53,542 nucleotides of DNA, from assembly GCA_014764485.1 (NCBI GenBank), contig JACXWA010000062.1, positions 1 through 53,542 on the forward strand, given 5' to 3'. The notes beneath the pieces were generated by a model. That model searched no databases, was not told the origin of the DNA, and worked only from the letters and a program-made list of their open reading frames with translations. The stretch's first letter is position 1. The number at the start of each line of letters is the position of its first letter. The DNA comes from Candidatus Sulfomarinibacter kjeldsenii (lineage in GTDB: Bacteria; Acidobacteriota; Thermoanaerobaculia; Thermoanaerobaculales; Sulfomarinibacteraceae). Below, in pieces: positions 41,541 through 53,542 of this stretch. A program made the translations under genes and the position numbers.

Positions 41541-42968
41541 ATGCCCATCATTACGATTTCTCGGGGATCCTGCAGCGGCGGCGCACGATTGGCGGATGAG
41601 TTACACAGAGTCCTCGGCTGGGACGTCCTCAGCCAGGAGGACGTGTCAACCGCCGCGGCCAAAACCTACCGGATGACGGAACAGGAGCTCTTTCGCGGGC
41701 TCTACCTGCCGGCCAATTTCTTCGAACGCTTCACCCACCGCAAGACCCGATACCTCCTCGCCACTCAAGCGACGGTCACCGAGCTTCTCGCTGACGGGAA
41801 CGGCATCTACCACGGGCTCGCCGGACAATTCCTATTCGCCGACCTGTGCAACGCATTCAAGGTGCGGATCGTTGCGCCGATGAGTTATCGGATCGAGACC
41901 GCGATGCAGCGATTCGGTTTGAAGAAGGACGAGGCCAGACGACATATCAAAGACGCCGACGAATACCGTTCTCGGTGGGGCCGCCAGATTTTCCATGCCG
42001 ATATCGCCGATGCCGACCTCTATGACCTGGTCGTCAACCTCGAACACGTCAGTATCGATAGGGCCGCAACGATGATCGCCGAGCTCATGGAGGGCGACGA
42101 CTATCAGCCCACCCCACAGTGTGTCCAGGACTTCCGGGATTTCGCACTCGAACGACGGGTGAGGGCAGAGCTCTTTTTCAATTCGCCCTTCACTCCCGAA
42201 ATCGCGCACGTCGAGACCCGAAACTCCGAGGTCACGCTCTCCGGGGGCAAATCGTTTGCGGCGTCCGAGAATGGGCTGATCGATTTTGTCGCCAAGATCC
42301 GCGGGGTCGAGAAGGTCACGACTGATCACGGGACCGTCGGCGCCGTCGACATCCGGCTCGACCCCGACTTCGCCCTTTCATCACGCGAAGCGAAGGCAGG
42401 CGACGTCATGTTGCCTCCTGAGAATTACCCGCACTGCAGGCTGACCTGTACCGTCCGCGAGGCGATCGTGGCCCTCAGTGCATCGGCCGTCAAGCTCCAG
42501 GACGGCTACATCATGCTGCCTCGCTACGTCCTGGTCCTTGATGACGACGACCGCCTGGTGGGCGTGGTCAGCCGTCGCGAGCTTCTCAAGGGCCTGATCC
42601 CCCACCTCCATGAAGATCGAGAGGCCGCGGCCCACATCAGAGAGTTGGTTCCCTTCGGCGGCAGCATGCCAACCGAGCTGTCGATTCGCTGGACTTCGTT
42701 GTTCTCACGTTCGGCGATCGAAGCTTCGATGATGCCCATTCAGTCTGTTATGGTGCCGATCAAGGGCACTGTCCAGGTCAACGACACGTTGTCGACGGTC
42801 ATCTCGACAATGCTCTTCCACAGGGTGGACCTGGTGGCAGTCCTCGATGGCGAGAAGGTGGCGGGTGTGGTTCTGATGACCAACATCTTCGACATCGTCG
42901 CCCAGTTCATCATGGAGTACGGACAGCCGCCCGCCGCCGATAGTGGCAAGGGCGGCAACGATGGCTGA
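41541..42968 (+). CDS. Cytidylate kinase-like family + BON + tandem CBS domain protein
   Basis: 475 aa. MPIITISRGSCSGGARLADEL (P-loop-like), KVRIVAPMSYRIETAMQRFGLKKDEARRHIKDADEYRSRW, a BON-like middle, and a C-terminal CBS pair (VLVLDDDDRLVGVVSRRELL; LVAVLDGEKVAGVVLMTNIF). Confidence 0.8.
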   Translation: MPIITISRGSCSGGARLADELHRVLGWDVLSQEDVSTAAAKTYRMTEQELFRGLYLPANFFERFTHRKTRYLLATQATVTELLADGNGIYHGLAGQFLFADLCNAFKVRIVAPMSYRIETAMQRFGLKKDEARRHIKDADEYRSRWGRQIFHADIADADLYDLVVNLEHVSIDRAATMIAELMEGDDYQPTPQCVQDFRDFALERRVRAELFFNSPFTPEIAHVETRNSEVTLSGGKSFAASENGLIDFVAKIRGVEKVTTDHGTVGAVDIRLDPDFALSSREAKAGDVMLPPENYPHCRLTCTVREAIVALSASAVKLQDGYIMLPRYVLVLDDDDRLVGVVSRRELLKGLIPHLHEDREAAAHIRELVPFGGSMPTELSIRWTSLFSRSAIEASMMPIQSVMVPIKGTVQVNDTLSTVISTMLFHRVDLVAVLDGEKVAGVVLMTNIFDIVAQFIMEYGQPPAADSGKGGNDG

Positions 42969-44535
42969 AAACGTAACCACCACCAGTGCCGAAACTGGCT
43001 CGAAATCCCGCCGCCGCTGGACGATTCGATTTCGGAGGAAACCCGAGTCGACCGTTGACTGGAAACGCCTCTTCTTTCTCCTTCTCGGTGTTTCGCTTTT
43101 CTTCGCAGTTTTCTTTTCACCGGCGTGGCCGGACGCAATCGATCCAATGGGGGAGGCTTTCGAGCTCAGTTCTCAGGGCAAGGCAGCGCTCGGCCTGTTT
43201 CTCCTGGCTGCCGTGTGGTGGGTCTTTGAGGTGGTGCCGATCGGTGTCACCAGCATCACGATTGCAGTCACCCAGGCGCTCTTTCTGATCCGTCCAGACG
43301 TGATGCTGGTTGGAGGAGACGCTCCAGTCGGTGGCGCCGAGTTGGCGTTCAAGGAGTTCATGCACCCCTCGGTCTGGTTCATCTTCGGTTCAATCGTCAT
43401 CGGCATGGTTTTTACAAAGACCGGTCTCACCAAACGATTGGCGTACAAGATGCTGGTCCTGGTCGGTGAGAAGACGAGCCGGATCTACCTCGGCTGCTTC
43501 GTCATGACCGCCGTCCTGACGCACGTCATGGCCCATACCGCGGTCGCCGCGACGATCTTTCCGCTGCTGGTCGCGATCTACCGTCTCTATGAAGAGGGTG
43601 ACGAGCCGACCAACTTCGGCAAGGGGCTGTTCATGGGAATGGCCTTCGTCGCCGGAGCCGGTAGCATCGTCACGCTGCTCGGCGCGGCCCGCGGCGCGGT
43701 GGCCCTCGGTTTCTACAAAGAGATCACCGGTCGGGACGTAAGCTTTTTCGGCCTCACCTGGTACATGTTCCCGATCGGTTGGGTGATGGTCTTTGTCTTG
43801 TGGGCCTTTTTCATGGTCTATTACAAACCGGAGCGCGCATCGATCCCGGGTCTTCGCGAACGAGCAAAGGACCTCTACACGCGCCTGGGGCCGATCACCG
43901 CCAAAGAGATCCAGGCCGCAGTCATCGTCCTCGGGGCGGTTTCAGTCATGAGCCTGCGATCGTTCATTCCGGCGCTCAAGAGCGTCGACAAGAGCGGGGT
44001 GATTCTGCTCGCGACGGTGCTCTTCTTCGTCCTCAAGATCCTCGACATCGGCGACCTCGAGAATGTGCCGTGGAATATCATCCTGCTCTTTGGCGGAGCG
44101 ATGAGTCTCGGCTACTGTCTCGTGCTGACGGGCGCTGCCGACTGGCTCGCCATCAACACGGTTTCGATGCTCAAGACCGCCCCGGCCCTGGTCTTCATTC
44201 TCGGCATGACGTTCTTCGTGATGATCATGACGAATCTGATCATGAACGTCGCCGCCATCGCTATCTGCCTGCCGGTGGCTCTCAAGGTCGCACCGTATCT
44301 CGGAGTCGGGGGCGAGGTGATTTTGTTCAGCGCGCTGGTCGTGGCCGGCATGCCATTTCTTCTTCTGGTGGGCGCGGCACCGAATGCCATCGCCTATGAG
44401 AGCAAACAGTTCACCTCGGGCGAGTTCTTCAAAGCAGGAATACCGGCCTCGCTGCTGCTGATGGTTGTTGTGGCCATCTTCGTCATATTCATCTGGCCGG
44501 TGATGGGCATGGAGGTGCTCATTCCGACCCAGTGA
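42961..44535 (+). CDS. DASS/SLC13-type anion transporter (ArsB/NhaD permease superfamily)
   Basis: ATG 42961 overlaps the upstream stop by 8 nt. About 12-14 hydrophobic segments with duplicated hairpin-type motifs. Substrate cannot be assigned from the sequence. Confidence 0.75.
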   Translation: MAENVTTTSAETGSKSRRRWTIRFRRKPESTVDWKRLFFLLLGVSLFFAVFFSPAWPDAIDPMGEAFELSSQGKAALGLFLLAAVWWVFEVVPIGVTSITIAVTQALFLIRPDVMLVGGDAPVGGAELAFKEFMHPSVWFIFGSIVIGMVFTKTGLTKRLAYKMLVLVGEKTSRIYLGCFVMTAVLTHVMAHTAVAATIFPLLVAIYRLYEEGDEPTNFGKGLFMGMAFVAGAGSIVTLLGAARGAVALGFYKEITGRDVSFFGLTWYMFPIGWVMVFVLWAFFMVYYKPERASIPGLRERAKDLYTRLGPITAKEIQAAVIVLGAVSVMSLRSFIPALKSVDKSGVILLATVLFFVLKILDIGDLENVPWNIILLFGGAMSLGYCLVLTGAADWLAINTVSMLKTAPALVFILGMTFFVMIMTNLIMNVAAIAICLPVALKVAPYLGVGGEVILFSALVVAGMPFLLLVGAAPNAIAYESKQFTSGEFFKAGIPASLLLMVVVAIFVIFIWPVMGMEVLIPTQ

Positions 44536-44579
44536 GAAAAGGGATCTTCTGAATCGAGGTCATACGCAGGAGGTACAGA

Positions 44580-45218
44580 TTGCCGACTTCAAAACTGATC
44601 TCAGGGTATCGAGAGTTCAGGGATAAGTTCGACTCAGAGCACGAGGTCTTCGAAAGGCTGGCCGAAGAGGGTCAGAATCCAAAGGTCCTGTGGATCGGTT
44701 GCGCGGACTCGCGGGTAGTACCTGAGCTGATCACCGGCGCCGATCCGGGCGAGCTCTTCGATGTGCGCAACATCGCCAATGTGGTCCCGCCCGCCGCCTC
44801 CGCCGCATGCGCAACTGGCGCCGCGGTAGAGTACGCAGTGATCCACCTCAATGTGAGTCACATCGTTATCTGTGGCCACACCGATTGCGGCGGCATCAAG
44901 GCCCTGGAGGCATCGCCGGATCCGGGGAGTCAGCCCCATATCACCTCGTGGCTCGAGCTCGCCAGACCGGCCCGCGACCGCGTTCTCGGCTCCGACGTTG
45001 CCGAGGAAGATCGGTACTTGGAGACAATCAAAACCAACGTGCTCATGCAGTGTGAAAACCTGCGGTCCTACCCTTGCGTTGCCGACGGCGAGCAATCGGG
45101 CGGCCTGTCGATCCATCCCTGGTTGTACGACCTGTTCACCGGCGACGTCCTGGAATTCGACCAGGACTCCGGGACCTGGGGTACCATCGCCGAATCCGCC
45201 GCAGGCTTGGAAACCTAG
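44580..45218 (+). CDS. Beta-class carbonic anhydrase
   Basis: TTG start 7 nt after AGGAGG. Zinc ligand motifs GCADSRV and GHTDCGG. 212 aa. Confidence 0.88.
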   Translation: MPTSKLISGYREFRDKFDSEHEVFERLAEEGQNPKVLWIGCADSRVVPELITGADPGELFDVRNIANVVPPAASAACATGAAVEYAVIHLNVSHIVICGHTDCGGIKALEASPDPGSQPHITSWLELARPARDRVLGSDVAEEDRYLETIKTNVLMQCENLRSYPCVADGEQSGGLSIHPWLYDLFTGDVLEFDQDSGTWGTIAESAAGLET

Positions 45219-45273
45219 CAACACCGTCGTTATCCCTCGAACGCGGCACTCGATTGGGAGTTCATTCTCGACA

Positions 45274-46332
45274 ATGGGACAGACAGCGACGATTTCCAAC
45301 GGCGCCCTTGCCGAGGCGTTGTTTATGCTTGCGGACGCCGAACCGCCCGGCGACAGGCGCCTGGCTCTGTTGCGCGCCGGCTATGCCGCCTTCGACGCGC
45401 CTGGAAAAGCACGTCGAGACCTGCTGCGAGAAGCGCCGCACTGGCTCAAACCTCTGATATCGCAACTCATAGCCTGCCGCGGTGAAGACGCGTTGCAGGC
45501 TGCAGTCCAACGCCTTCAGGGCGGTGAGAACTCTCGTCGTCGGCCCGCGCGTCAGGGCTATCTCAGCCGTGCTGAGATGACCGAGGTTCTCAAATCCGGA
45601 CCCGAGGATCTCCATCCTCAACGGCTGCGGGGGGCCTGTCATTGGCACACAAGGCACTCAGACGGCAAGGCGTCGCTCGAGACCATGGCCCGGGCGTGTG
45701 GTCGCCGCGGCTACGCCTGGTCGATGGTCACCGACCACTCACGCGGGCTCGAGGTCGCGTCGGGGCTCGACCGGGAAGGAGTCCGTCTCCAGCGCCGGCG
45801 AGTTGAGCGGTGGAATGATCAGCACGGCGAGGAACACCGCCTTTTCCAGGGGCTCGAGGTCGAGGTCCTGGCCGACGGCACCCTAGATGTACCGAAGGGT
45901 GAGCGTCTCGAGATCGACTGCGTGGTCGCGGCCGTCCACAGTCAATTCGATCCGGACCGTGATCAGACCGAACGCCTTCTGCGCACCATCCAGACGCCCG
46001 AAGTGCACCTACTCGCCCACCCCCGCGGTCGTCACTTCCACCATCGTCCTGGCCTCAAGGCGCGTTGGGAGACCGTGTTTTCGGCCTGCGCAGACGCAGG
46101 CGTTGCAATCGAGATCAACGGATTTCCACGTCGTCAGGACCTCGACGCAGACCTTGCCCGCCTGGCTGTCGAAAAGGGCTGCGAGGTCATTCTCTCCTCG
46201 GACGCCCACGCCGTGCCGCACCTCGAATTCGATGCCTACGCCTCGGCAATCGCCATGCGCGCCGAAGTCCCCCGCGAACGGATCCTCAATGTCCTCCACG
46301 CCGACGAGTTCGAGGTTTGGCTGAAAAGGTAG
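45274..46332 (+). CDS. PHP-domain phosphoesterase (PolX C-terminal-like)
   Basis: ORF 44872..46332 trimmed to ATG 45274 (MGQTATISNGALAEAL). CHWHTRHSDG, MVTDHS, AAVHSQF, LAHPRGR and SSDAH metal-binding motifs. Confidence 0.75.
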   Translation: MGQTATISNGALAEALFMLADAEPPGDRRLALLRAGYAAFDAPGKARRDLLREAPHWLKPLISQLIACRGEDALQAAVQRLQGGENSRRRPARQGYLSRAEMTEVLKSGPEDLHPQRLRGACHWHTRHSDGKASLETMARACGRRGYAWSMVTDHSRGLEVASGLDREGVRLQRRRVERWNDQHGEEHRLFQGLEVEVLADGTLDVPKGERLEIDCVVAAVHSQFDPDRDQTERLLRTIQTPEVHLLAHPRGRHFHHRPGLKARWETVFSACADAGVAIEINGFPRRQDLDADLARLAVEKGCEVILSSDAHAVPHLEFDAYASAIAMRAEVPRERILNVLHADEFEVWLKR

Positions 46333-46488: not shown

Positions 46489-46911
46489 TCACCGGGAGGA
46501 GTTGATAACTGCCTCAACCTCAACCAGCGTTGTCTCTTCGAGTCGAGCCCGGAGCATGGTGTTCGCCTCGAGAACAATCCGGCCCAGAATGCAGTTGTCA
46601 CCGTCACAGATGGCGGAGCTGAGCAGACATTGGTTCGGCTCGAATGGTCCTTCAATGGCTTCGAAGATTTCCAAGAGCGTGACTGACTCCGGAGGTCGAG
46701 TGAGGATAAAGCCTCCGTGAGGACCGCGTAAAGATCGTAGAAGCCCGACCTTTACCATTCTTTGCAGCACTTTTGCGAGATGCGCTTCAGAAATTTCAAA
46801 CCGCCTTGCGATCTCACGCGATGTGATCGGTCCATCCTCATCGTTGGCTAGGTATCCAAGGGCGTGCATGGCCAATGAGGAAGCTTCCGATATCTTGAGC
46901 GCACACGGCAT
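46489..46911 (-). CDS. Rrf2-family transcriptional regulator with three C-terminal Cys (Fe-S type)
   Basis: ATG 46911 (GGAG RBS). MPCALKISEASSLAMHALGYL..., wHTH ITSREIARRFEISEAHLAKVLQRMVKVGLLRSLRGPHGGF, and Cys cluster C-x6-C-x4-C (NQCLLSSAICDGDNC). Confidence 0.85.
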   Translation of the reverse strand: MPCALKISEASSLAMHALGYLANDEDGPITSREIARRFEISEAHLAKVLQRMVKVGLLRSLRGPHGGFILTRPPESVTLLEIFEAIEGPFEPNQCLLSSAICDGDNCILGRIVLEANTMLRARLEETTLVEVEAVINSSR

Positions 46912-46966
46912 CTTGATAACTCCGGTTGTTGAATGTGTCGCGGGTTTCGGCACCGGACGGCACCGG

Positions 46967-46995
46967 CCTTGACCTCGGTCAAGGATACCTTGACC
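46967..46995. promoter_or_regulatory. Candidate operator in the Rrf2 / operon divergent region
   Basis: Palindrome CCTTGAC-CTCG-GTCAAGG (46967-46984) followed by a third half-site CCTTGACC (46988-46995). Confidence 0.35.
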
Positions 46996-47120
46996 ACATT
47001 CAGGCTATTCAGTATTGTAATGCCGAAATTCGGGTTTCAATTCCGAGAGTCCAGCGGAACGGTAGGAGGCATGACGAAAACAATGGTCGCCGAAACCGTC
47101 AACCGAAAGAGTCATCGTTC

Positions 47121-48971
47121 GTGAACGAAGCTGACTCTATCGCCGAAGGACGCTTTGAAGACGCCTTTTTGATCGCACGCGCTCCCAACCCGTTGGCCTC
47201 GGTCTGCGGTCGGATCTGTTCCGCGCCGTGTGAGGATGCGTGCCGACGGGCATGGGTCGATGAGGCAGTCACCATCCGACCCCTCAAGCGATTCGTCACC
47301 GAACAATTTGGGGCCGAGTCGGCACGCCCGGATTTCTTCAAGCTCTTGATGTCCGACCCGCAGCAGACGTCTGACGCAGCCGATGACGCAGGCTGCCGGC
47401 GGCTTTGGCACGTGGATCAGCTGAGCAGGGACACATCCCTCGCCGGCACACGTTCCCAGAGGGTGGCTGTGATCGGAAGCGGCCCCGCCGGGCTGGGATG
47501 CGCTCACGATCTGGCGTTGATGGGCTTTGACGTCACCGTCTTCGAGGCCCTGCCGGAGCTCGGCGGCATGCTGCGATATGGAATCCCCGAGTATCGCTTA
47601 CCCCGGGGCGTGATCGATCGGGAGGTCGCCGCAATTGAAAAACTTGGCGTCACCTTCCTGACCAACAAACCGATTACCAGCGAATATGGCCTCCGGGAAC
47701 TCCGGGCAGAAGGGTATGAGGCGTTCTTCCTGTCGGTGGGTGCCATGCGCGGACGCGATCTGAGAATCGAGGGATCCGACAAGGACGGGGTCGTCAAAGC
47801 CGTAGACTACCTCCTCAACCTCAACCGCGGCTACCGCGTCGATCTCGGCGAACGAGTCGTGATCATCGGCGGTGGATCGGTAGCTCTCGACGCCGCGCGC
47901 ACCGCGGTTCGTGAGTTCTACCAACCCATGGACGAGATCGAGCTCACTGCCAAAGCGGTAGCGAACCAACCAGCTATGGACGCCGCCCGCGGGGCGTTGC
48001 GTGGTGGTGCGAGCGAGGTCCACGTCATTTCACTCGAATCCCTCGATGAACTCCCCGCCGCTCAGACAGTGCAGGGGAAGGATGAGCTCGACGAGGCCCT
48101 CGAAGAGGGAATTCAGCTCCACCTGGGGTGGGGACCGAAGAAGATCACAGGCAACGGCGGCGTCGAGGGCATCGAGTTTGTCGGGGTCGAGAGGGTCTTC
48201 GACGACGAGGGCCGCTTCAATCCCTTGTTTGACGACAGTCGCACATTAGCTCTCGATGCCGACTCGGTGATTTTGGCGATCGGCCAGCAACCCGATTTCA
48301 GCTTTCTCTCGGACGAGGACGGAATCGAGCTCAGCCCAACAGGAACCGTCAAGATCGACCCAGAGACCCTGGCGACCACTGCGGATGGCGTTTTCGCGGG
48401 AGGGGACGCCGCCTTCGGTCCGCGCATCGCCATCGAGGCGGTGGCGAACGGCAAGCAAGCCGCACGTTCAATCCATGAGTACCTCACCGGATCTCCGGCC
48501 GCAATCAGGATGCAGGTTGAAATCGAGAAGATTCCCGCCGACGTGTACTGGATGCCCGAGGCTTACGAAAAGAAGATGCGGCGTTCCGCTCCGACCGTCT
48601 CCGCAGGGCGGCGGACCGGGATCACCGAGGTCGAAGAAGTGATGTCGCCCGAGCAGGCCCTGAATCAGGCAGAACGATGCCTGTCCTGCCATGTAGACAC
48701 CATCTACGACCCGCACCGGTGCGTTCTGTGCAACCGTTGTGCGGACGTCTGCCCGGAAAAATGCCTGACCTTCGTTCCTCTCGAGCAGGTGGACATGCCT
48801 ACGGAGCAGCTCGAGGTCGCCCTCGAAACCTACGGACACGACCGCAACCGGCCGATGACAGTCCTTTTGAAAGACGACACCGTCTGCATTCGCTGCGGTC
48901 TCTGCGCGGCGCGTTGTCCAACGGAGGCGATGACCATGGAACGGTTCAACTTCATCGAGTCAACGGGGTGA
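47121..48971 (+). CDS. GltD-like NAD(P)H-dependent flavin oxidoreductase fused to a C-terminal 2x[4Fe-4S] ferredoxin domain
   Basis: ORF 46926..48971. Start uncertain, and GTG 47121 is chosen. NPLASVCGRICSAPCEDAC, Rossmann VAVIGSGPAGLGCAHDL, GGMLRYGIPEYRLP, IIGGGSVALDAART, then CVLCNRCADVCP and CIRCGLCAARCP. Confidence 0.8.
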   Translation: MNEADSIAEGRFEDAFLIARAPNPLASVCGRICSAPCEDACRRAWVDEAVTIRPLKRFVTEQFGAESARPDFFKLLMSDPQQTSDAADDAGCRRLWHVDQLSRDTSLAGTRSQRVAVIGSGPAGLGCAHDLALMGFDVTVFEALPELGGMLRYGIPEYRLPRGVIDREVAAIEKLGVTFLTNKPITSEYGLRELRAEGYEAFFLSVGAMRGRDLRIEGSDKDGVVKAVDYLLNLNRGYRVDLGERVVIIGGGSVALDAARTAVREFYQPMDEIELTAKAVANQPAMDAARGALRGGASEVHVISLESLDELPAAQTVQGKDELDEALEEGIQLHLGWGPKKITGNGGVEGIEFVGVERVFDDEGRFNPLFDDSRTLALDADSVILAIGQQPDFSFLSDEDGIELSPTGTVKIDPETLATTADGVFAGGDAAFGPRIAIEAVANGKQAARSIHEYLTGSPAAIRMQVEIEKIPADVYWMPEAYEKKMRRSAPTVSAGRRTGITEVEEVMSPEQALNQAERCLSCHVDTIYDPHRCVLCNRCADVCPEKCLTFVPLEQVDMPTEQLEVALETYGHDRNRPMTVLLKDDTVCIRCGLCAARCPTEAMTMERFNFIESTG

Positions 48972-48976
48972 GAACA

Positions 48977-49525
48977 GTGGCATCAAACACAATCCAAAAC
49001 GAAACAGGGGTCTCCTCCGAAGCCGGCACGGATCCGACGCGTCGGGGTTTTCTGGGGCGCCTGACGGCGGCGGTTGCAGCCGTCGGAGCCCTGGTGGCGG
49101 GATGGCCGCTGCTGCGATCGCTGGTGCCGAATGTCCTCTACGAACCACCGAAGAGATTCCGCATCGGCGCTCCCGAGAACTTTCAGGAGGGCGTCACCTT
49201 CCTGGAAGAGCATCGGCTCTTCCTGTTCCGCGACAGCTCGAACTATCACGCCGTTTCGGGGATCTGCACTCACCTCGGCTGCACCGTGAAGTTCTCCCCG
49301 TTCACCCTGCCCCAGGAGGAGACGGTCCGCGAGTTCACCTACCGCGCCCTGGGCGAGTTCCACTGCCCGTGTCACGGCTCGAGGTTCAGGGGCGAAGGAA
49401 CCAACTACGCGGGCCCCGCACCGCGGCCTCTCAAGTGCTTCCACCTAGAAGTTTCACGCGCAACTGGAGAGTTGGTGGTTGATGTGGCGACCGAGGTCTC
49501 GCGCGACTTCAGACTGGTGGTATAG
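48977..49525 (+). CDS. Rieske [2Fe-2S] subunit with Tat-like signal
   Basis: GTG 48977. TRRGFLGRLTAAVAAVGAL. CTHLGC and CPCHGS cluster-binding boxes. Confidence 0.88.
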   Translation: MASNTIQNETGVSSEAGTDPTRRGFLGRLTAAVAAVGALVAGWPLLRSLVPNVLYEPPKRFRIGAPENFQEGVTFLEEHRLFLFRDSSNYHAVSGICTHLGCTVKFSPFTLPQEETVREFTYRALGEFHCPCHGSRFRGEGTNYAGPAPRPLKCFHLEVSRATGELVVDVATEVSRDFRLVV

Positions 49526-51022
49526 ATGATCCTCTCCAAAATCACCGGTGTCTGGCAGAAACTCACCTGGTCGTGGCGGCCGGAGTCCAACCGCGAGGCC
49601 GGCAGCGGAATCGTCGCCAACTTCCTACTCCACTGGTTTCCGAATCGAATCTCTCTTCGCAGCCTCGCTTTCCCCGCTTCGTTCTATCTCGGCACCATCA
49701 CCTTTGTCGTCTTTCTGGTCCTGACTGTCACCGGGGTGATTCTGATGTTTTTGTATGTGCCTTCAGTAGAACGCGCTTACTGGAGTCTCAAAGACCTCGA
49801 CCACGCGGTGAGCTTTGGATGGCTCCTCAGACGGTTGCATCGGATCTCCGCCCACCTCATGGTGGCCTTGGTCTTCCTCCACATGTTCCGGGTCTTTCTC
49901 ACCGGCTCGTACAAAGCCGGCGAGATCGTCAAGTCCGCGCGCCCATTCAATTGGGTGCTCGGAGTCACACTGCTGGTGCTGACGCTCCTCCTCAGCTTCA
50001 CCGGTTACCTGCTGCCGTGGGACCAGCTCGCATTCTGGGCGATCACGGTCGGAACCAACATTGCGGCTGCCGTTCCATATGTGGGCGAAACCATTCGGCA
50101 GTTCCTGCTCGGCGGCACGATCATCGGCCAACCGACCCTGATCCGATTCTACGTCCTCCACTGTGCCCTCCTGCCATTGGTCCTCTTTGGGGTGGCGGCC
50201 TGGCACATGTGGCGCATCCGCAAGGATGGCGGCCTCGCGATTGTCGAGCAGGACCGCCAGGAGGCGCTTGCCCGGGAACCCCAGGCACCCAAGAAGAGCA
50301 AGACCTACAGCGTTCTCGGCATCGCCAGCGGAACCACCGTCCAGGTCAACGATCCGACCACTCTCAACGAGGAAAACTCGGTGCCGTCGACGCCATTCCT
50401 CACCGTCCGAATCCTGCTCGTCACCCTTCTGACAGTGGCCGTCTCGATCGGTCTGTCGCTCGTTGTTCACGCACCCCTCGAGGCTGCTGCAAACCCGGAG
50501 GTCACCCCCAACCCCGCAAAGGCGCCGTGGTACTTTCTCGGGCTTCAGGAAATGGTCGGTTACTCCGCCCTCATGGGCGGCGTTATCGTTCCGACCATTG
50601 TCATCCTCGGCCTGATGCTGATTCCCTTTCTCGATCGCGAGCAGAAGGGGATCGGCTTCTGGTTTACCGACGGCCCCGGGAGGAAATGGGGTGTCTTCGG
50701 TTTCGTCTATGGGCTGGTGACGACCTGCGGTTGTCTGGCGATGGCGCTCCTCGCTCCCATGCGCAGCATTTTCCCGACCATCGAGAGCCAGTTTTTCTTC
50801 GATCTCGTGAACCCTGCGACATTCCTCCTTCTTCTCTTTGCAGGCATGTATTTCGTGGTCCTGAAGAAGACCGCTTCGACGCGCTATGCGGCGATCGCCA
50901 CCTTCTGCGCGTTCATCATTGCGTTCGTCATTCTGACCTACACCGGGACGGCCCTGCGTGGGCCCAACTGGGATTTCTTCTGGCCCTGGCAGGCGTGGCC
51001 GGTTCACCCGACGGCGCTGTGA
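49526..51022 (+). CDS. Cytochrome b (fused b6 / subunit IV-type)
   Basis: 498 aa. [21 protein letters not shown] (bis-His helix), [24 protein letters not shown] (PEWY-like). Confidence 0.88.
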
Positions 51023-51029
51023 GGTACCG

Positions 51030-52253
51030 ATGATCAAAAAGATTTCTCAGCGCGAGATCCTGCTGGTGCTCATCGCCGCAGTGGCAGTCCTTGCGGTCGG
51101 CATCGCGGCGATTGTTTACGACACCGCACCGGAGTGGAAGTACTACCAGTCCGAGTTCGGCGCGATCGTCGCCGAAACGTTCGCTGAAGTCGATCCTGCG
51201 ACTCTACCGTCCGGGATCCAACAAGTCTGGGTCGAGAAACTCGACCGTGTCGACCGTTGCACCACCTGTCACCTCGGCGTCACCTGGCGCGGTCTCGAGG
51301 GCGTCGAGCAACCGTGGACCACTCACCCCATGCCGGAGATCTTCGACAACCACCCGATCGAGGACTTCGGTTGCACGGTGTGCCACGGCGGGCAGGGATT
51401 TGCGCTCGCCGAGTACGACGCCCACGGTTTCGTCAAGCACTGGGAGGAGCCTCTCCTTTCAGACATCGCGGGATCCGAGTACGACCCTCGCAACCCGCCG
51501 CCCCTGTATGAGGTCCAGTGCAACTTCTGTCACCGCTATGAGCGTTCGACCGACGGCACGCCGTACATCAACCAGGCCAAGGAGTTCGTGCGCACCAAAG
51601 GCTGCAAGATCTGCCACGTCATCAATGGTGACGGTGGCAAGCTCGGACCGGATCTGACACGGGAGGGCGACAAGCACGCCGAAGGCTTCGATTTCTCGAA
51701 TCTGGTCTCCGATCAGATAACTGTCTTCAACTGGCACATCAAACACTTCCAATCGCCACCGACCATCGTGCCTGGATCGATCATGCCCGAGATGAACTTC
51801 CAGTCGCACGAAGCTCAGGCTCTCGCCATGCTGGTCATGAGCTGGCGCGACGACGAGGACCTGCCCCGCGCCTACTTGCCGGGAGTCGAGCTCAAGGATG
51901 AGATGACACCCGAAGAGGTCGAGAGGGACCGTCGCATGCGCGAGGGTGACGGCGCCTTCTTCGTCAAGCACAACTGCTTCGTGTGCCACAGCATCAAGGC
52001 GTATGACATTCAATCTCCGACCGACAAGGGGCCCGATCTGTCGCTGGCTCCGGACGACGTCCGCGCCCGCTTCAACAAAACGGTCGAAGAATTCCTCTTC
52101 GATCCGACCGGCACCATGAAGATCATCCTCGAGAGTCAGATCGTTCTCTCCGACGAAGAAAAATGGCAGGCCGTCGAAAAGATCATGAAGGCCTACGACA
52201 TCGTCAAAAACCGGGCCGTGGAGGCCGAGGCCACCGCGGCGAGCGGGCCATAG
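51030..52253 (+). CDS. Membrane-anchored multihaem c-type cytochrome (five CxxCH)
   Basis: ATG 51030 with an N-terminal TM helix. CTTCH, CTVCH, CNFCH, CKICH and CFVCH. The last two lie in class I cytochrome c-like contexts (…GPDL…). Confidence 0.85.
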   Translation: MIKKISQREILLVLIAAVAVLAVGIAAIVYDTAPEWKYYQSEFGAIVAETFAEVDPATLPSGIQQVWVEKLDRVDRCTTCHLGVTWRGLEGVEQPWTTHPMPEIFDNHPIEDFGCTVCHGGQGFALAEYDAHGFVKHWEEPLLSDIAGSEYDPRNPPPLYEVQCNFCHRYERSTDGTPYINQAKEFVRTKGCKICHVINGDGGKLGPDLTREGDKHAEGFDFSNLVSDQITVFNWHIKHFQSPPTIVPGSIMPEMNFQSHEAQALAMLVMSWRDDEDLPRAYLPGVELKDEMTPEEVERDRRMREGDGAFFVKHNCFVCHSIKAYDIQSPTDKGPDLSLAPDDVRARFNKTVEEFLFDPTGTMKIILESQIVLSDEEKWQAVEKIMKAYDIVKNRAVEAEATAASGP

Positions 52254-52280
52254 AACCGCACAACAAGGAGGAGGCATCAA

Positions 52281-53542
52281 ATGAACAAGAAGACAATCTT
52301 TCGACTGACGGTCGCGTTGCTCGTCGTCGGGCTCTTTGTCGGGCTCGCGGCTTGCGGCAAAAAACCGCCGCAACGTCGCGGCGCGCGCGCCGGCGGAGGA
52401 GGAACATCCGATCTGGCGAGCGCGGCTCTGGCAACCTATGTCGCTCCGGGCGACCTCGACGAGTACTACCTCTTTTACTCGGGTGGTCACAGCGGCCAGA
52501 TCTTTGTCGCCGGCATCCCGTCGATGCGCCACATCGCAACGATCCCGGTCTTCACGCCGTACCCCGGTACCGGCTTCGGTTTCGACGACGAGACCAAGGA
52601 AATGCTTGGTGAATACTCGTGGGGTGACTCCCACCATCCGGGTCTCTCTGAGACCGGCGGTGAGTACGATGGTCGGTGGTTGTTCATCAACGACAACGCC
52701 AACGGCCGGATAGCACGGATCGACCTCAAGGACTTCAAGACCAAACAGATCCTGACCATCCCCAATATTTCGGCCAACCACGGCAGTTCTTTCGTCACCC
52801 AGAACTCTGAATATGTGACCATGGCGACCAGGATGTCGGTTCCGTTTCCTGAGGGCAGATATGCCGACGTCACCGAGTACGCCACCGAGTACAACGGGAT
52901 CGTCGCGGGCATTAAGATCGATCCCGACGACGGAAACCTGAGCTTGGGATGGGAGGTCCTGGTACCGCCATTCAACTACGACCTCGGCGACGCCGGAAAG
53001 GGCCCCTCGGACGGATTCCTCTTCTGGACCTGCTACAACTCCGAACGCGAGTTCATCGAAGGCGGCAAACTCGAGGTGACCGCCTCTCAGAAGGACAAGG
53101 ATTACATCTTGATCGTGGACTGGCGTGAGGCCGACAAGGCCATTGCCGCCGGCAAATTCAAGACCGTCACGGGAGCACCGGTCATCGATCCCGCGGCCGC
53201 TCCGGGCGTGGCCTACTTCATGCCACTCGCCAAATCGCCACACGGAGTCGACGTCGACCCCAGCGGTCGTTGGATCATCGGCTCGGGCAAGCTTTCACCG
53301 ACGACCACCGTGTATGACATCGAAAAGATCAAGACCGCGATCGCCAACAAGGACTTCGAGGAGACCATCGACGGCATCCCGGTGCTGACCTACAGCTCGG
53401 TGCGTGAGGCCGAGATCCCGGTCGGACTCGGTCCGCTCCACACCCAGTTCGACGGCAAGGGCTACGCCTATACGTCGCTCTTTGTCGAGAGCGCGGTCGC
53501 GAAGTGGAAGCTCCCGCCGTACGAGGCCGGCGCCGACATGAA
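52281..53542 (+). CDS. nosZ: Nitrous-oxide reductase, clade II type (N-terminal ~420 codons; continues beyond the window)
   Basis: Not in the ORF track because there is no stop in the window. ATG 52281 follows AAGGAGGAGG. Lipoprotein-type signal MNKKTIFRLTVALLVVGLFVGLAAC with no twin-Arg. DLDEYYLFYSGGHSGQIFVAGIPSMRHIATIPVF, WGDSHHPGLSE, AKSPHGVDVDPSGRW. Confidence 0.85.
   Translation, partial: MNKKTIFRLTVALLVVGLFVGLAACGKKPPQRRGARAGGGGTSDLASAALATYVAPGDLDEYYLFYSGGHSGQIFVAGIPSMRHIATIPVFTPYPGTGFGFDDETKEMLGEYSWGDSHHPGLSETGGEYDGRWLFINDNANGRIARIDLKDFKTKQILTIPNISANHGSSFVTQNSEYVTMATRMSVPFPEGRYADVTEYATEYNGIVAGIKIDPDDGNLSLGWEVLVPPFNYDLGDAGKGPSDGFLFWTCYNSEREFIEGGKLEVTASQKDKDYILIVDWREADKAIAAGKFKTVTGAPVIDPAAAPGVAYFMPLAKSPHGVDVDPSGRWIIGSGKLSPTTTVYDIEKIKTAIANKDFEETIDGIPVLTYSSVREAEIPVGLGPLHTQFDGKGYAYTSLFVESAVAKWKLPPYEAGADM

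What the first reader, a model, noticed from the sequence alone, without database searches (positions are those of the whole stretch)
46489..53542. Rrf2-flanked operon couples a GltD-like flavoprotein-ferredoxin fusion to a Rieske/cytochrome b/five-haem c module directly upstream of clade II nosZ
Seen in the sequence: five co-directional genes are separated by only 5, 0, 7 and 27 nt (48971/48977, 49525/49526, 51022/51030, 52253/52281). They encode a GltD-type NAD(P)H/FAD protein with two extra CxxCxxCxxxCP clusters, a Tat-signal Rieske protein, a fused cytochrome b, a TM-anchored cytochrome c with five CxxCH motifs, and a lipoprotein-signal NosZ. A three-Cys Rrf2 regulator is divergently transcribed, with a palindrome in the shared control region. 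Established knowledge: clade II NosZ is Sec-exported, and its clusters carry varied accessory b/c-type cytochrome and Fe-S genes (for example NosG/H/C1/C2 in Wolinella). Fe-S Rrf2 proteins such as NsrR sense NO. Inference: this looks like a dedicated quinol-to-NosZ electron delivery complex. A soluble pyridine-nucleotide-linked flavoprotein translationally adjacent to it is not part of the nos modules I know. I cannot check here whether this exact architecture is already described.
Basis: partly seen in the sequence, partly recalled or inferred. Interest (0 to 1): 0.7.

Follow-up and report, generated by a model that had tools for sequence, protein, structure and literature searches.

The report
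Flavoprotein-linked Rieske/cytochrome b module feeding NosZ
This is the front half of a common type of nitrous-oxide-reduction gene cluster whose dedicated quinol-oxidising membrane complex carries an extra NAD(P)-binding iron-sulfur flavoprotein; the layout is already known, but what the flavoprotein does is still unsolved, and this copy of its gene carries an unusual in-frame deletion.

Summary
Five co-directional genes, with gaps of 5, 0, 7 and 27 nt, encode a GltD/NfnB-like FeS flavoprotein, a Tat-exported Rieske protein, a fused cytochrome b, a five-haem cytochrome c and a Sec/lipoprotein clade II NosZ. A divergent three-Cys Rrf2 gene and a perfect 8-2-8 palindrome lie upstream.

The architecture is not new. 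The order flavoprotein-Rieske-cyt b-cyt c-nosZ-nosD-nosF recurs in most of 80 species-level genomes from many phyla, including Anaeromyxobacter. nos papers draw this layout as "Fe-S / S / cy-b / cy-c".

The flavoprotein is a full-length homologue (32% identity, E 3e-102) of the NAD(P) oxidoreductase subunit of the anammox Rieske/cyt b complexes. The Rieske protein's best solved relatives are Kuste4569 and Kustd1480.

Most likely this is a dedicated menaquinol:NosZ Rieske/cyt b complex with a cytoplasmic NAD(P)-linked subunit. The direction of electron flow is unresolved. I lean towards N2O-driven reduction of NAD(P)+ through quinol bifurcation.

One thing is peculiar to this window: an in-frame 111-nt deletion removes the conserved CxxxCP segment found in all 89 relatives examined.

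Verdict: a new member of a known kind, of moderate interest.

The parts
46489..46911 (-). Rrf2-family regulator gene (140 aa), with three Cys (C95, C102, C107), transcribed divergently from the operon.
   Evidence: PF02082 E 2.8e-31 and TIGR00738 above its cut-off. All named subfamilies (IscR, NsrR, RirA, CymR, SufR) score far below their cut-offs. The 140-aa gene call comes from the near-identical contig L001.
46967..46995 (.). Candidate operator: a perfect inverted repeat CCTTGACC-TC-GGTCAAGG (46967-46984) plus a third CCTTGACC half-site (46988-46995). It overlaps the -35 of a promoter-like site (46990-47018, + strand).
   Evidence: the repeat is unique in the window, and the chance expectation is 0.24 even when 3 mismatches are allowed. 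Relatives with about 90% protein identity (L003-L006) keep it at the same position, and it is absent from distant relatives. The promoter-like matches are no more numerous than in shuffled sequence.
47071..47124 (+). Short upstream ORF (17 codons, MTKTMVAETVNRKSHRS). Its TGA stop overlaps the GTG start of the flavoprotein gene (GTGA), and AGGAGG lies at 47064-47069.
   Evidence: Read directly from the sequence. The same arrangement is present in L003. Its function is untested and it may be fortuitous.
47121..48971 (+). Cytoplasmic NAD(P)-binding FAD/FeS flavoprotein: a GltD/NfnB-like core with a C-terminal 2x[4Fe-4S] ferredoxin domain. It is 616 aa here and 653 aa in the closest relatives.
   Evidence: Pfam and NCBIfam hits. 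A profile of the family hits the NfnA chain of NfnABC (9bov/9bp5, E 1.5e-103), NfnB, NfnI, GltD and DPD. It is a full-length homologue of the anammox NAD(P) oxidoreductase subunit.
47135..47142 (+). Junction of an in-frame 111-nt deletion, between 47138 and 47139. It removes residues 7-43 (GFPRFPARFNELPWYRSNVPCMEACPVHTDSGRYVQL), including the conserved CxxxCP pair.
   Evidence: Protein alignment. DNA alignment against L001 and L002. The blastn breakpoints share 4 nt, and the flanks are 99.5-99.7% identical. CxxxCP is present in 89 of 89 relatives. The Fer4_20 match starts only at model position 48.
48977..49525 (+). Rieske [2Fe-2S] subunit with a Tat signal and membrane anchor. Box I is CTHLGC and box II is CPCHGSRF.
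   Evidence: The best solved relatives are 9rk4 (Kuste4569, E 4.7e-22) and 9rk3 (Kustd1480, E 4.2e-16), against 2e-9 for the next hit. The box II Ser is present in every family member examined.
49526..51022 (+). Fused cytochrome b (498 aa): a b6-like four-helix part plus a subunit IV-like part.
   Evidence: The best PDB hit is cytochrome b6 (E 3.7e-41), with both His pairs aligned. The Qo motif is APWY in 77 of 77 relatives. The haem cn Cys is absent (FYLGT). The N-terminal NFLLHWFP motif is conserved.
51030..52253 (+). Membrane-anchored periplasmic cytochrome c with five CxxCH motifs. Its C-terminal part resembles class I cytochrome c and is the presumed direct donor to NosZ CuA.
   Evidence: Translation. 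Weak Pfam hits to Cytochrom_C, FixO and CBB3. It follows cytochrome b in 63 of 63 loci. The first dihaem part is 44% identical to the anammox hexahaem subunit.
52281..53542 (+). 5' part of clade II (Sec-dependent, lipoprotein-type) nosZ, cut off by the end of the window.
   Evidence: TIGR04246 scores 527 bits over model positions 1-365. The signal peptide with its LAAC lipobox is visible. In relatives the full 634-aa gene is followed by nosB-like, nosD and nosF genes.

Best explanation
The region is the regulatory and electron-transfer head of a clade II nos cluster of the 'Fe-S / Rieske / cyt b / cyt c' type.

Proposed complex. The four genes before nosZ encode one membrane complex of the Rieske/cytochrome b family.
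- Menaquinol is oxidised at a Qo site formed by the fused cytochrome b (motif APWY) and the Rieske cluster.
- The high-potential electron passes from the Rieske cluster through the five-haem cytochrome c to CuA of the periplasmic lipoprotein NosZ.
- The flavoprotein (FAD, an NAD(P) site and four FeS clusters) sits on the cytoplasmic face of cytochrome b. It wires the b haems to the pyridine-nucleotide pool, as proposed for its anammox homologues Kuste4570 and Kustd1483.

Direction of flow (inferred). [quoted passage not shown] That electron would pass through bL, bH, the FeS chain and FAD to reduce NAD(P)+.

Shown here: homology, domain content, conserved residues and conserved synteny. Inferred: physical association of the flavoprotein with the complex, the direction of electron flow, the quinone type and operon-level regulation.

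Regulation (inferred). The Rrf2 protein probably represses the divergent promoters through the 8-2-8 palindrome.

This window's copy. The flavoprotein has lost one Cys pair through an in-frame deletion, so its FeS wire may be broken.
For: Identity and synteny
- domain content.
- in the 80 best of at least 455 relatives in species-level genomes, Rieske follows in 74/75 loci, cyt b in 69/70, cyt c in 63/63 and nosZ in 52/57. These span Acidobacteriota, Gemmatimonadota, Myxococcota (Anaeromyxobacter sp. PSR-1), Ignavibacteria/Bacteroidota, Calditrichota, KSB1 and Zixibacteria.
- Gene gaps are 0-7 nt, or a 4-nt overlap in L008.

Link to the anammox complexes
- the Rieske protein's best solved relatives are Kuste4569 and Kustd1480.
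- the anammox-type loci have Rieske, a full-length flavoprotein homologue (32% identity over residues 17-645, E 3e-102, all Cys motifs shared), cyt b (47-48% identity) and a subunit IV carrying the same [14 protein letters not shown] motif.

Conserved residues
- the Ser in CPCHGS is universal. This Ser raises Rieske potential, and the anammox proteins measured +303 and +335 mV (PMC12954380).
- the His of N-x-x-L-H-W-F-P is conserved. It aligns with His43 of Kuste4571, the predicted ligand of an extra haem b facing the flavoprotein.
- both b-haem His pairs and the Qo motif are retained.

Literature
- The Kartal bifurcation proposal and the co-migration of subunits are summarised in PMC12954380.
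- Co-occurrence of subfamily G cytochromes b with NAD(P)-binding FeS oxidoreductases is noted in PMC5600118.
Against: - There is no experimental evidence for any nos-linked complex of this type.
- The direction of electron flow cannot be derived from sequence.
- The host phyla are mostly heterotrophs. They make NADH in catabolism and have no obvious need for reverse electron flow.
- If a functional Qi site exists, electrons on bH would reduce menaquinone rather than NAD(P)+.
- The nos type differs from the anammox type: cytochrome b is fused, it lacks the haem cn Cys, and the cytochrome c has five haems rather than six or eight.
- Rieske/cyt b/cyt c clusters without the flavoprotein also exist (L099, L152), so the flavoprotein is not needed for quinol oxidation as such.
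- In this window the flavoprotein gene carries a deletion of conserved cluster ligands.
- My AlphaFold2 model was too poor (pLDDT 53) to test docking.
Confidence: 0.55

Rival explanations
1. Same complex, opposite direction. The flavoprotein is an electron entry module. NAD(P)H reduces FAD, and the FeS chain feeds the b haems and a Qi site, or feeds the c haems directly from bL. The complex is then a self-contained NAD(P)H:N2O oxidoreductase with an internal quinone loop. Alternatively it supplies low-potential, membrane-potential-assisted electrons that keep CuZ of NosZ active, the role ascribed to NosR in clade I.
For: GltD and NfnB relatives normally take hydride from NAD(P)H (family knowledge; hits). 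The hosts are heterotrophs that must reoxidise NADH. Clade II clusters lack nosR (PMC9697520). The AF3 models of the anammox complexes show unexpectedly short bP-to-haem c distances (PMC12954380). All conserved features found here fit this direction equally well.
Against: Complex I would do the same job with better energy conservation. Outward electron flow through the b haems dissipates membrane potential. The universally conserved high-potential-type Rieske box and Qo motif are not required for a simple NAD(P)H-to-cytochrome c wire.
Confidence: 0.3
2. The flavoprotein is an independent soluble enzyme, for example an Nfn/GltD-like NADPH:ferredoxin or transhydrogenase-type enzyme. It is merely co-transcribed with the nos genes and is not a subunit of the Rieske/cyt b complex.
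For: It has no transmembrane segment or signal peptide (translation). Its closest solved relatives are soluble enzymes.
Against: It is followed by Rieske and cyt b in 74/75 and 69/70 genomes across many phyla, often with overlapping or nearly abutting reading frames. The same pairing occurs in other gene orders and without nosZ (L112-L154, L070, L074-L088). The anammox homologue co-migrates with its complex (de Almeida 2016, as cited in PMC12954380).
Confidence: 0.08
3. In this particular genome the flavoprotein subunit is inactive, because the 111-nt deletion removes FeS ligands. The module works only as a plain quinol:NosZ Rieske/cyt b complex. Alternatively the deletion is an assembly or consensus artefact and the real genome is wild type.
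For: The deletion is absent from two contigs that are 99.5-99.7% identical and from 89 of 89 relatives. It removes invariant residues. It is in frame, so downstream genes are not affected by polarity. A 4-nt microhomology at the junction is typical of a real slippage deletion.
Against: No reads are available to verify it. A protein that keeps four N-domain Cys, the RCLSC pair and both ferredoxin motifs might still fold and carry some clusters.
Confidence: 0.5

Closest known systems
Clade II nos clusters of the 'Fe-S, S (Rieske), cy-b, cy-c, nosZ, nosB, nosDFY' type, as drawn since Sanford et al. 2012 (for example Anaeromyxobacter)
   Same: Same gene set and order. Anaeromyxobacter sp. PSR-1 (L052) has flavoprotein (53% identity), Rieske, cyt b, cyt c, nosZ, a nosB-like gene, nosD and nosF. 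NosZ is Sec-type and no nosR is present.
   Different: In this lineage the Rrf2 gene is divergent rather than co-directional or absent. The flavoprotein gene carries a 37-codon deletion. In that literature the first gene is only called an iron-sulfur protein. That the 'Fe-S' box is this gene is my inference from L052 and from the figure legends (PMC11096178, PMC11237620, PMC13122619); I could not read Sanford 2012 itself.
Anammox Rieske/cyt b complexes Kuste4569-4574 and Kustd1480-1485 of Kuenenia stuttgartiensis
   Same: A homologous Rieske protein (best PDB hits). A homologous full-length NAD(P) oxidoreductase subunit with identical Cys motifs. A b6-like cytochrome b with the conserved N-terminal His. 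A subunit IV part with the APWY motif. A multihaem c subunit. A strongly oxidising terminal enzyme encoded last.
   Different: Gene order differs (Rieske comes first in anammox). Cytochrome b and subunit IV are split and carry the CxGG haem cn site in anammox, whereas here they are fused and lack it. The cytochrome c has six or eight haems there and five here. The terminal partner is an HAO-like octahaem protein there and NosZ here. The flavoprotein here has two insertions of about 30 aa.
Wolinella succinogenes NosGH-NosC1C2 module plus the housekeeping Qcr complex (Hein et al. 2017)
   Same: It has the same task: delivering menaquinol electrons to a Sec-exported clade II NosZ.
   Different: There the proteins are unrelated polyferredoxin/NapGH-like proteins plus small cytochromes c, and the bc complex is encoded elsewhere. 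Here the Rieske/cyt b complex itself is encoded in the nos cluster, and no NosG or NosH gene is present within 10 kb in relatives.
NosR of clade I nos clusters
   Same: It is a flavin and FeS protein with cytoplasmic 2x[4Fe-4S] motifs that connects cytoplasmic or membrane redox pools to periplasmic NosZ.
   Different: The architecture is unrelated: NosR is an integral membrane protein with periplasmic FMN. No homology to NosR was detected in the Pfam or NCBIfam scans.
NfnB / NfnA of NfnABC / GltD (glutamate synthase small subunit) family
   Same: An FAD Rossmann fold, an NAD(P)H Rossmann fold and an N-terminal FeS helical domain. Profile E-values range from 1e-103 to 1e-59.
   Different: All equivalog models score below their cut-offs. 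There is no partner NfnA/GltB-type gene. The protein has a fused C-terminal dicluster ferredoxin domain, and its neighbours are membrane-complex genes.

Membership tests
Clade II (Sec-dependent) nitrous oxide reductase NosZ | The sequence matches the Sec-dependent NosZ model better than the Tat-dependent model. | tested here: met
   TIGR04246 scores 527 bits over model positions 1-365, against 260 bits for TIGR04244. The score is below the full-length cut-off only because the gene is cut by the window end.
Clade II (Sec-dependent) nitrous oxide reductase NosZ | A Sec or lipoprotein signal peptide instead of a twin-arginine signal. | tested here: met
   The N-terminus is MNKKTIFRLTVALLVVGLFVGLAAC, with a lipobox and no RR motif (read directly).
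Clade II (Sec-dependent) nitrous oxide reductase NosZ | A CuA cupredoxin domain, and nosB plus nosDFY downstream. | not testable with these tools
   These lie beyond the window end. They are present in relatives L003, L007 and L008: PF13473, a 213-aa membrane ORF, NosD and an ABC ATPase.
Rieske/cytochrome b (bc-type) quinol oxidising complex | A Rieske protein with cluster boxes CxHxGC and CxCHG, exported by Tat. | tested here: met
   CTHLGC and CPCHGSRF are present. PF00355, PF10399 and TIGR01409 all match.
Rieske/cytochrome b (bc-type) quinol oxidising complex | Cytochrome b with two His pairs for haems bL and bH. | tested here: met
   The alignment to cytochrome b6 (2zt9_A, E 3.7e-41) conserves both the H-x13-H and the H-x14-H pairs.
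Rieske/cytochrome b (bc-type) quinol oxidising complex | A Qo-site P(E/D)W(Y/F) motif. | tested here: inconclusive
   The variant APWY, with no acidic residue, is found in 77 of 77 nos-linked and 7 of 7 anammox sequences. Its functional meaning is unknown.
Cytochrome b6f-type complex in the strict sense | A CxGG motif that binds haem cn, and a split b6 plus subunit IV. | tested here: not met
   The equivalent position reads FYLGT or FWLGT instead of CxGG, and the gene is fused (498 aa).
Anammox-type Rieske/cyt b complexes with an NAD(P) oxidoreductase subunit | A full-length homologue of Kuste4570/Kustd1483 encoded next to the Rieske and cyt b genes. | tested here: met
   32-38% identity over residues 17-645 to the flavoprotein genes of anammox-type loci L091-L097. 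BLASTP gives E 3e-102, and all Cys motifs are shared.
Anammox-type Rieske/cyt b complexes with an NAD(P) oxidoreductase subunit | The Rieske subunit is most closely related to Kuste4569 and Kustd1480. | tested here: met
   9rk4 E 4.7e-22 and 9rk3 E 4.2e-16, against 2e-9 for the next PDB hit.
Anammox-type Rieske/cyt b complexes with an NAD(P) oxidoreductase subunit | The flavoprotein is physically part of the membrane complex. | not testable with these tools
   Only synteny and conservation of the predicted interfacial His speak to this. The single-chain AF2 model was poor.
GltD/NfnB-type NAD(P)H:FAD iron-sulfur flavoprotein | Two Rossmann folds (FAD and NAD(P)H) with GxGxxG motifs. | tested here: met
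   PF07992 E 1.2e-30, and VAVIGSGPAG and VVIIGGGSVA are present. The profile hits NfnA, NfnB, GltD and DPD.
GltD/NfnB-type NAD(P)H:FAD iron-sulfur flavoprotein | A complete N-terminal FeS domain (Fer4_20) with its Cys ligands. | tested here: not met
   In the window copy the CxxxCP pair is deleted and the Fer4_20 match begins at model position 48. The feature is met in all 89 relatives.
Genuine glutamate synthase small subunit (GltD) | A score above the equivalog or subfamily cut-off, and a gltB partner gene. | tested here: not met
   TIGR01317 scores 178 bits against a cut-off of 448, and TIGR01318 scores 202 against 483. The neighbours are respiratory genes.
NsrR (NO-sensing Rrf2 repressor) | A score above the NsrR equivalog cut-off. 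| tested here: not met
   NF008240 scores 41 bits against a cut-off of 182. The IscR, RirA, CymR and SufR models are also far below their cut-offs. Only membership of the Rrf2 superfamily and the three Cys are shown.
Wolinella-type NosG/NosH/NosC1/NosC2 electron transport module | NapGH-like polyferredoxin and membrane subunits encoded in the nos cluster. | tested here: not met
   No such genes occur in the window operon or within 10 kb downstream in L003, L007 or L008.

The most novel reading that the evidence does not exclude
The nos-linked flavoprotein-Rieske/cyt b complex is an N2O-driven, quinol-bifurcating NAD(P)+ reductase. Oxidation of menaquinol at Qo sends one electron to NosZ and pushes the other through low-potential b haems and four FeS clusters to FAD and NAD(P)+. 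Complex I could then reoxidise the NADH, which would raise the energy yield of N2O respiration.

Because the module occurs in cultured bacteria such as Anaeromyxobacter, it would be the first experimentally tractable model for the anammox complexes, whose function is unresolved. The naturally shortened allele in this window would amount to a ready-made variant of the FeS wire.
Probability: 0.35. Interest if true: 0.75.

Novelty: new member of a known kind. Interest (0 to 1): 0.35.

Why it matters
Clade II NosZ organisms are a main biological sink for the greenhouse gas N2O, and this module heads the nos cluster in many soil and sediment phyla. How electrons reach NosZ sets the energy yield and competitiveness of these N2O reducers.

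The nos papers I could read treat the first gene only as an iron-sulfur protein. The anammox and cytochrome bc literature treats its homologue as a puzzling NAD(P) oxidoreductase subunit. I found no open paper that joins the two views, although my ten literature searches cover only part of what is published.

Joining them matters because anammox bacteria are hard to cultivate and, to my knowledge, cannot yet be manipulated genetically. Testing the nos-linked complex in cultured N2O reducers could answer whether Rieske/cyt b complexes can bifurcate quinol electrons onto NAD(P)+.

For this window itself the result is ordinary annotation. The exception is the in-frame deletion, which may mark a natural loss or change of function in the flavoprotein subunit.

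Tried and rejected
- Structure prediction. An AlphaFold2 model of the full-length flavoprotein (P0001, 14-sequence alignment) gave mean pLDDT 53 and pTM 0.42. That is too poor for a fold search, so I ran none and used a sequence-profile search of the PDB instead.
- Papers I could not read. Sanford 2012, Park 2017 and Dibrova 2013 are not held. Equating the 'Fe-S' box with this gene therefore rests on later figure legends and on locus L052.
- Literature searches. Searches for an explicit link between the nos Fe-S gene and NAD(P)/flavoprotein/anammox found nothing relevant. This is a limited search, not proof that no such paper exists.
- One failed lookup. P0116 (Latescibacteria) had no encoding contig on record.
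- Genuine glutamate synthase beta subunit: rejected, because scores fall below the cut-offs and there is no gltB neighbour.
- DsrL-like protein of sulfur metabolism: considered from memory because of the same GltD-plus-ferredoxin architecture. I did not pursue it, because every neighbour is respiratory or nos-related.
- NsrR: rejected as a family assignment.
- Internal terminators between the genes: none lies in the intergenic gaps. The ten terminator-like hits all fall inside coding sequence and barely exceed the shuffle expectation of 5.7 +/- 2.8.
- The long antisense ORFs (for example 51459-53243 on the minus strand) are treated as shadow ORFs of GC-rich coding DNA. I did not test them further.

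Full report
WHAT IS IN THE SEQUENCE

The finding's coordinates hold up. On the plus strand, five reading frames follow one another with gaps of 5, 0, 7 and 27 nt: 47121-48971, 48977-49525, 49526-51022, 51030-52253, and 52281 to the window end. Profile scans identify them as follows.
- An NAD(P)-binding FAD/FeS flavoprotein. It matches Pyr_redox_2, part of Fer4_20 and Fer4_7. Its best NCBIfam match is the NAD(P)-binding subfamily PRK12771, and every glutamate-synthase model scores below its cut-off.
- A Rieske protein with a Tat signal.
- A 498-aa cytochrome b. Its N-terminal half is b6-like and its C-terminal half is like subunit IV.
- A cytochrome c with an N-terminal membrane anchor and five CxxCH motifs.
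- The first 420 residues of a Sec-dependent (clade II) NosZ with a lipoprotein signal, LAAC. TIGR04246 scores 527 bits against 260 bits for the Tat-type model.

An Rrf2-family gene with three Cys (C95, C102, C107) is transcribed divergently. It is best placed at 46489-46911, following the gene call on the near-identical contig L001.

In the 209-nt control region there is an exact inverted repeat, CCTTGACC-TC-GGTCAAGG (46967-46984), with a third half-site at 46988-46995. The repeat is unique in the window, and the chance expectation is 0.24 even when three mismatches are allowed. It overlaps the -35 of a promoter-like site. However, promoter-like matches are no more frequent than in shuffled sequence, and no terminator-like site falls in any intergenic gap.

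Immediately upstream lie a DASS-type transporter, a beta carbonic anhydrase and a weak PHP-domain protein.

The flavoprotein gene of this window is 37 codons shorter than all of its relatives. The protein alignment and the DNA alignment against two metagenome contigs (L001, L002) show an exact 111-nt in-frame deletion between 47138 and 47139. Elsewhere those contigs are 99.5-99.7% identical to the window, and the breakpoints share 4 nt.

The lost segment is GFPRFPARFNELPWYRSNVPCMEACPVHTDSGRYVQL. It contains invariant residues and a CxxxCP pair that is present in 89 of 89 relatives examined. In the NfnABC structure 9bov this stretch aligns with PCVLACPAHTD of the FeS-binding N-domain.

The family has only six Cys in its N-domain. 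A conserved RCLSC pair sits just before the C-terminal ferredoxin domain and resembles the RCLSCG start of E. coli GltD (my recollection of that sequence). I infer that this pair completes the two N-domain clusters, but this is untested. If so, the deletion would destroy one of the four FeS clusters.

A 4-nt microhomology is typical of a real slippage deletion and is an unlikely product of a k-mer assembler. Without reads this cannot be settled.

COMPARATIVE EVIDENCE

The flavoprotein has thousands of database relatives. The best 120 are 65-100% identical, and the few that carry a source name are MAGs labelled Acidobacteria, Calditrichaeota or Latescibacteria.

Gene neighbourhoods of four of them show the same order: an Rrf2 gene, the flavoprotein, Rieske, cyt b (always 498 aa), cyt c (about 405 aa), nosZ (about 630 aa, propeller plus cupredoxin), two small ORFs (the first in the position where nos papers place nosB), nosD, an ABC ATPase and membrane genes.

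A scan of one genome per species found at least 455 relatives. I ran tblastn with the window's proteins against the 80 best loci. Counting only loci long enough to show each gene:
- Rieske follows the flavoprotein gene in 74 of 75 loci.
- Cytochrome b follows in 69 of 70.
- The cytochrome c follows in 63 of 63.
- nosZ follows in 52 of 57.

The hosts include Acidobacteriota, Gemmatimonadota, Myxococcota (Anaeromyxobacter sp. PSR-1, L052), Ignavibacteria/Bacteroidota, Calditrichota, KSB1, Zixibacteria, Kryptonia and Acidimicrobiia.

Five loci carry the four-gene module without nosZ. In L070 it is followed by a small five-haem cytochrome, a Tat-signal 827-aa ORF, a Cys-rich 227-aa ORF and a hydrophobic 442-aa ORF. 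By size and N-terminal sequence these suggest a molybdopterin-type oxidoreductase with FeS and membrane subunits; I ran no domain scan on them. In four loci labelled Binatia, Acidiferrales or delta proteobacterium, a monohaem cytochrome c gene precedes it.

An Rrf2 gene lies within 1.5 kb upstream in only 12 of 73 loci, always on the same strand. The divergent arrangement and the palindrome are confined to the window's close relatives L001-L006.

RELATION TO THE ANAMMOX COMPLEXES

The best solved relatives of the window's Rieske protein are 9rk4 and 9rk3 (E 4.7e-22 and 4.2e-16, against 2e-9 for the next hit). These are Kuste4569 and Kustd1480 of Kuenenia stuttgartiensis.

Those proteins belong to two Rieske/cyt b complexes that contain a putative cytoplasmic NAD(P) oxidoreductase with FAD and four FeS clusters. 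Kartal et al. proposed that quinol bifurcation in these complexes reduces NAD(P)+, and the subunits co-migrate experimentally (PMC12954380).

I used the 9rk4 sequence to fetch anammox-type contigs. The gene next to Rieske is a full-length homologue of the window's flavoprotein family:
- 32-38% identity over residues 17-645, with BLASTP E 3e-102.
- Identical CxxxCP, Cx3Cx3Cx3C and RCLxC motifs, and two ferredoxin motifs.

It is followed by a b6-like cytochrome b (47-48% identity) and a subunit IV carrying the same [14 protein letters not shown] motif as the window's fused cytochrome b. A hexahaem c comes next, whose first dihaem part is 44% identical to that of the window's cytochrome c. An HAO-like octahaem protein comes last.

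The same scan also returned many environmental loci with the flavoprotein paired with cyt b and Rieske in other gene orders. Some Rieske/cyt b/cyt c clusters lack the flavoprotein (L099, L152).

RESIDUES THAT BEAR ON MECHANISM

- Both b-haem His pairs align with those of cytochrome b6.
- The Qo motif is APWY in 77 of 77 nos-linked proteins and in the anammox subunit IV.
- The haem cn Cys (CxGG) is present in the anammox cytochromes b but is replaced by F(Y/W)LGT in the nos type.
- The N-terminal motif N-x-x-L-H-W-F-P is nearly universal. Its His aligns with His43 of the anammox cytochrome b, read from L093. The AlphaFold3 models in PMC12954380 predict that this His ligates an additional haem b at the dimer interface, facing the flavoprotein.
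- Box II of the Rieske protein is CPCHGS-x-(Y/F) in every sequence. The Ser raises the cluster potential, and the two anammox proteins measured +303 and +335 mV (PMC12954380).
- The host phyla are, to my knowledge, menaquinone organisms. This comes from established taxonomy and was not tested here. A high-potential Rieske cluster paired with menaquinol implies very low-potential b haems.

HOW IT MOST LIKELY WORKS

- Shown: the homology, the conserved residues and the synteny.
- Strongly inferred: the four proteins form one complex dedicated to NosZ. Menaquinol is oxidised at Qo, and one electron runs from the Rieske cluster through five c haems to CuA and CuZ of NosZ.
- Inferred by analogy: the flavoprotein docks on the cytoplasmic face and wires the b haems to NAD(P).

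The direction of flow is open. I lean, at about 0.4-0.45, to the standing anammox hypothesis: the exergonic high-potential branch, here ending in N2O at E0' of about +1.36 V, drives the second electron onto NAD(P)+.

The main rival, at about 0.3, is electron entry from NAD(P)H. That entry could go into a Qi site to form an internal quinone loop. Alternatively it could run outward to keep CuZ reduced, a NosR-like role in clusters that lack nosR.

Every conserved feature I found is compatible with both directions. The presence or absence of a working Qi site would discriminate between them, and I could not assess it.

COMPARISON WITH WHAT IS KNOWN, AND NOVELTY

[quoted passage not shown] A BadM/Rrf2 regulator next to nos genes was noted for Melioribacter roseus (PMC3534657).

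Dibrova et al. noted that subfamily G cytochromes b co-occur with large NAD(P)-binding FeS oxidoreductases. They also described a clade G' of long cytochromes b in large conserved operons of unknown function (PMC5600118).

The architecture is therefore known in both literatures. I found no open paper that connects the nos 'Fe-S' gene with the anammox NAD(P) oxidoreductase subunit, but my ten searches cover only part of the literature.

VERDICT

This is a new member of a known kind.

Interest is moderate (0.35). That score rests on two points. The homologous complex in cultured N2O reducers could make the long-open question about anammox-type Rieske/cyt b complexes testable. And this copy of the flavoprotein gene carries a naturally shortened allele.

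Noticed in passing
window 47138/47139 (within 47121-48971): An in-frame 111-nt deletion in the flavoprotein gene, relative to two 99.5-99.7% identical metagenome contigs and all 89 relatives. It removes the conserved CxxxCP segment, and the junction shows a 4-nt microhomology.
   Followed up: yes
window 47064-47124: An AGGAGG followed by a 17-codon ORF (MTKTMVAETVNRKSHRS) whose TGA stop overlaps the GTG start of the flavoprotein gene. The same arrangement occurs in L003, where gene callers even predicted a 66-aa ORF. It may be a leader peptide or translational coupling, or it may be chance.
   Followed up: partly
window 46948-46966: A direct repeat CGGCACCGG-A-CGGCACCGG immediately upstream of the palindrome. 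It lies within a block of about 70 nt that is perfectly conserved between the window and L003.
   Followed up: no
L070 9968-20110; L074, L077, L086, L088: The same flavoprotein/Rieske/cyt b/five-haem c module occurs without nosZ. In L070 it is followed by a small five-haem cytochrome, a Tat-signal 827-aa ORF, a Cys-rich 227-aa ORF and a hydrophobic 442-aa ORF (not domain-scanned). In the four loci labelled Binatia, Acidiferrales or delta proteobacterium, a monohaem cytochrome c gene precedes it.
   Followed up: partly
L112, L114, L115, L118, L138, L144, L149, L154: Environmental contigs with a different gene order (flavoprotein, cyt b, then Rieske; about 43% identity). This shows that the flavoprotein-cyt b pairing is much wider than the nos clusters.
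   Followed up: no
L041 10001-21869: A MAG labelled Ignavibacterium album carries the full module upstream of nosZ. The I. album genome paper (PMC3362086) states that the organism has no cytochrome b-Rieske complex. Either the MAG label is loose or the nos-linked complex was overlooked.
   Followed up: no
L152 112-8500: A nosZ-nosB-like-nosD-nosF cluster followed, rather than preceded, by Rieske and cyt b genes, with no flavoprotein gene detected. This is a flavoprotein-less variant.
   Followed up: no
window 42943-46332: The upstream neighbours are a Na/sulfate-citrate (DASS) type transporter, a beta-class carbonic anhydrase and a protein with a weak PHP-domain match. The carbonic anhydrase is also near the cluster in L003, but the genes between it and the Rrf2 gene differ.
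   Followed up: partly
window 47121-48971, protein residues about 68-109 and 259-289 (P0001 residues 105-146 and 296-326): Relative to the anammox homologue, the nos-type flavoprotein has two insertions of about 30 aa. One lies between the FeS N-domain and the FAD fold, and one lies just after the GGGS motif of the NAD(P) fold. Their function is unknown.
   Followed up: no
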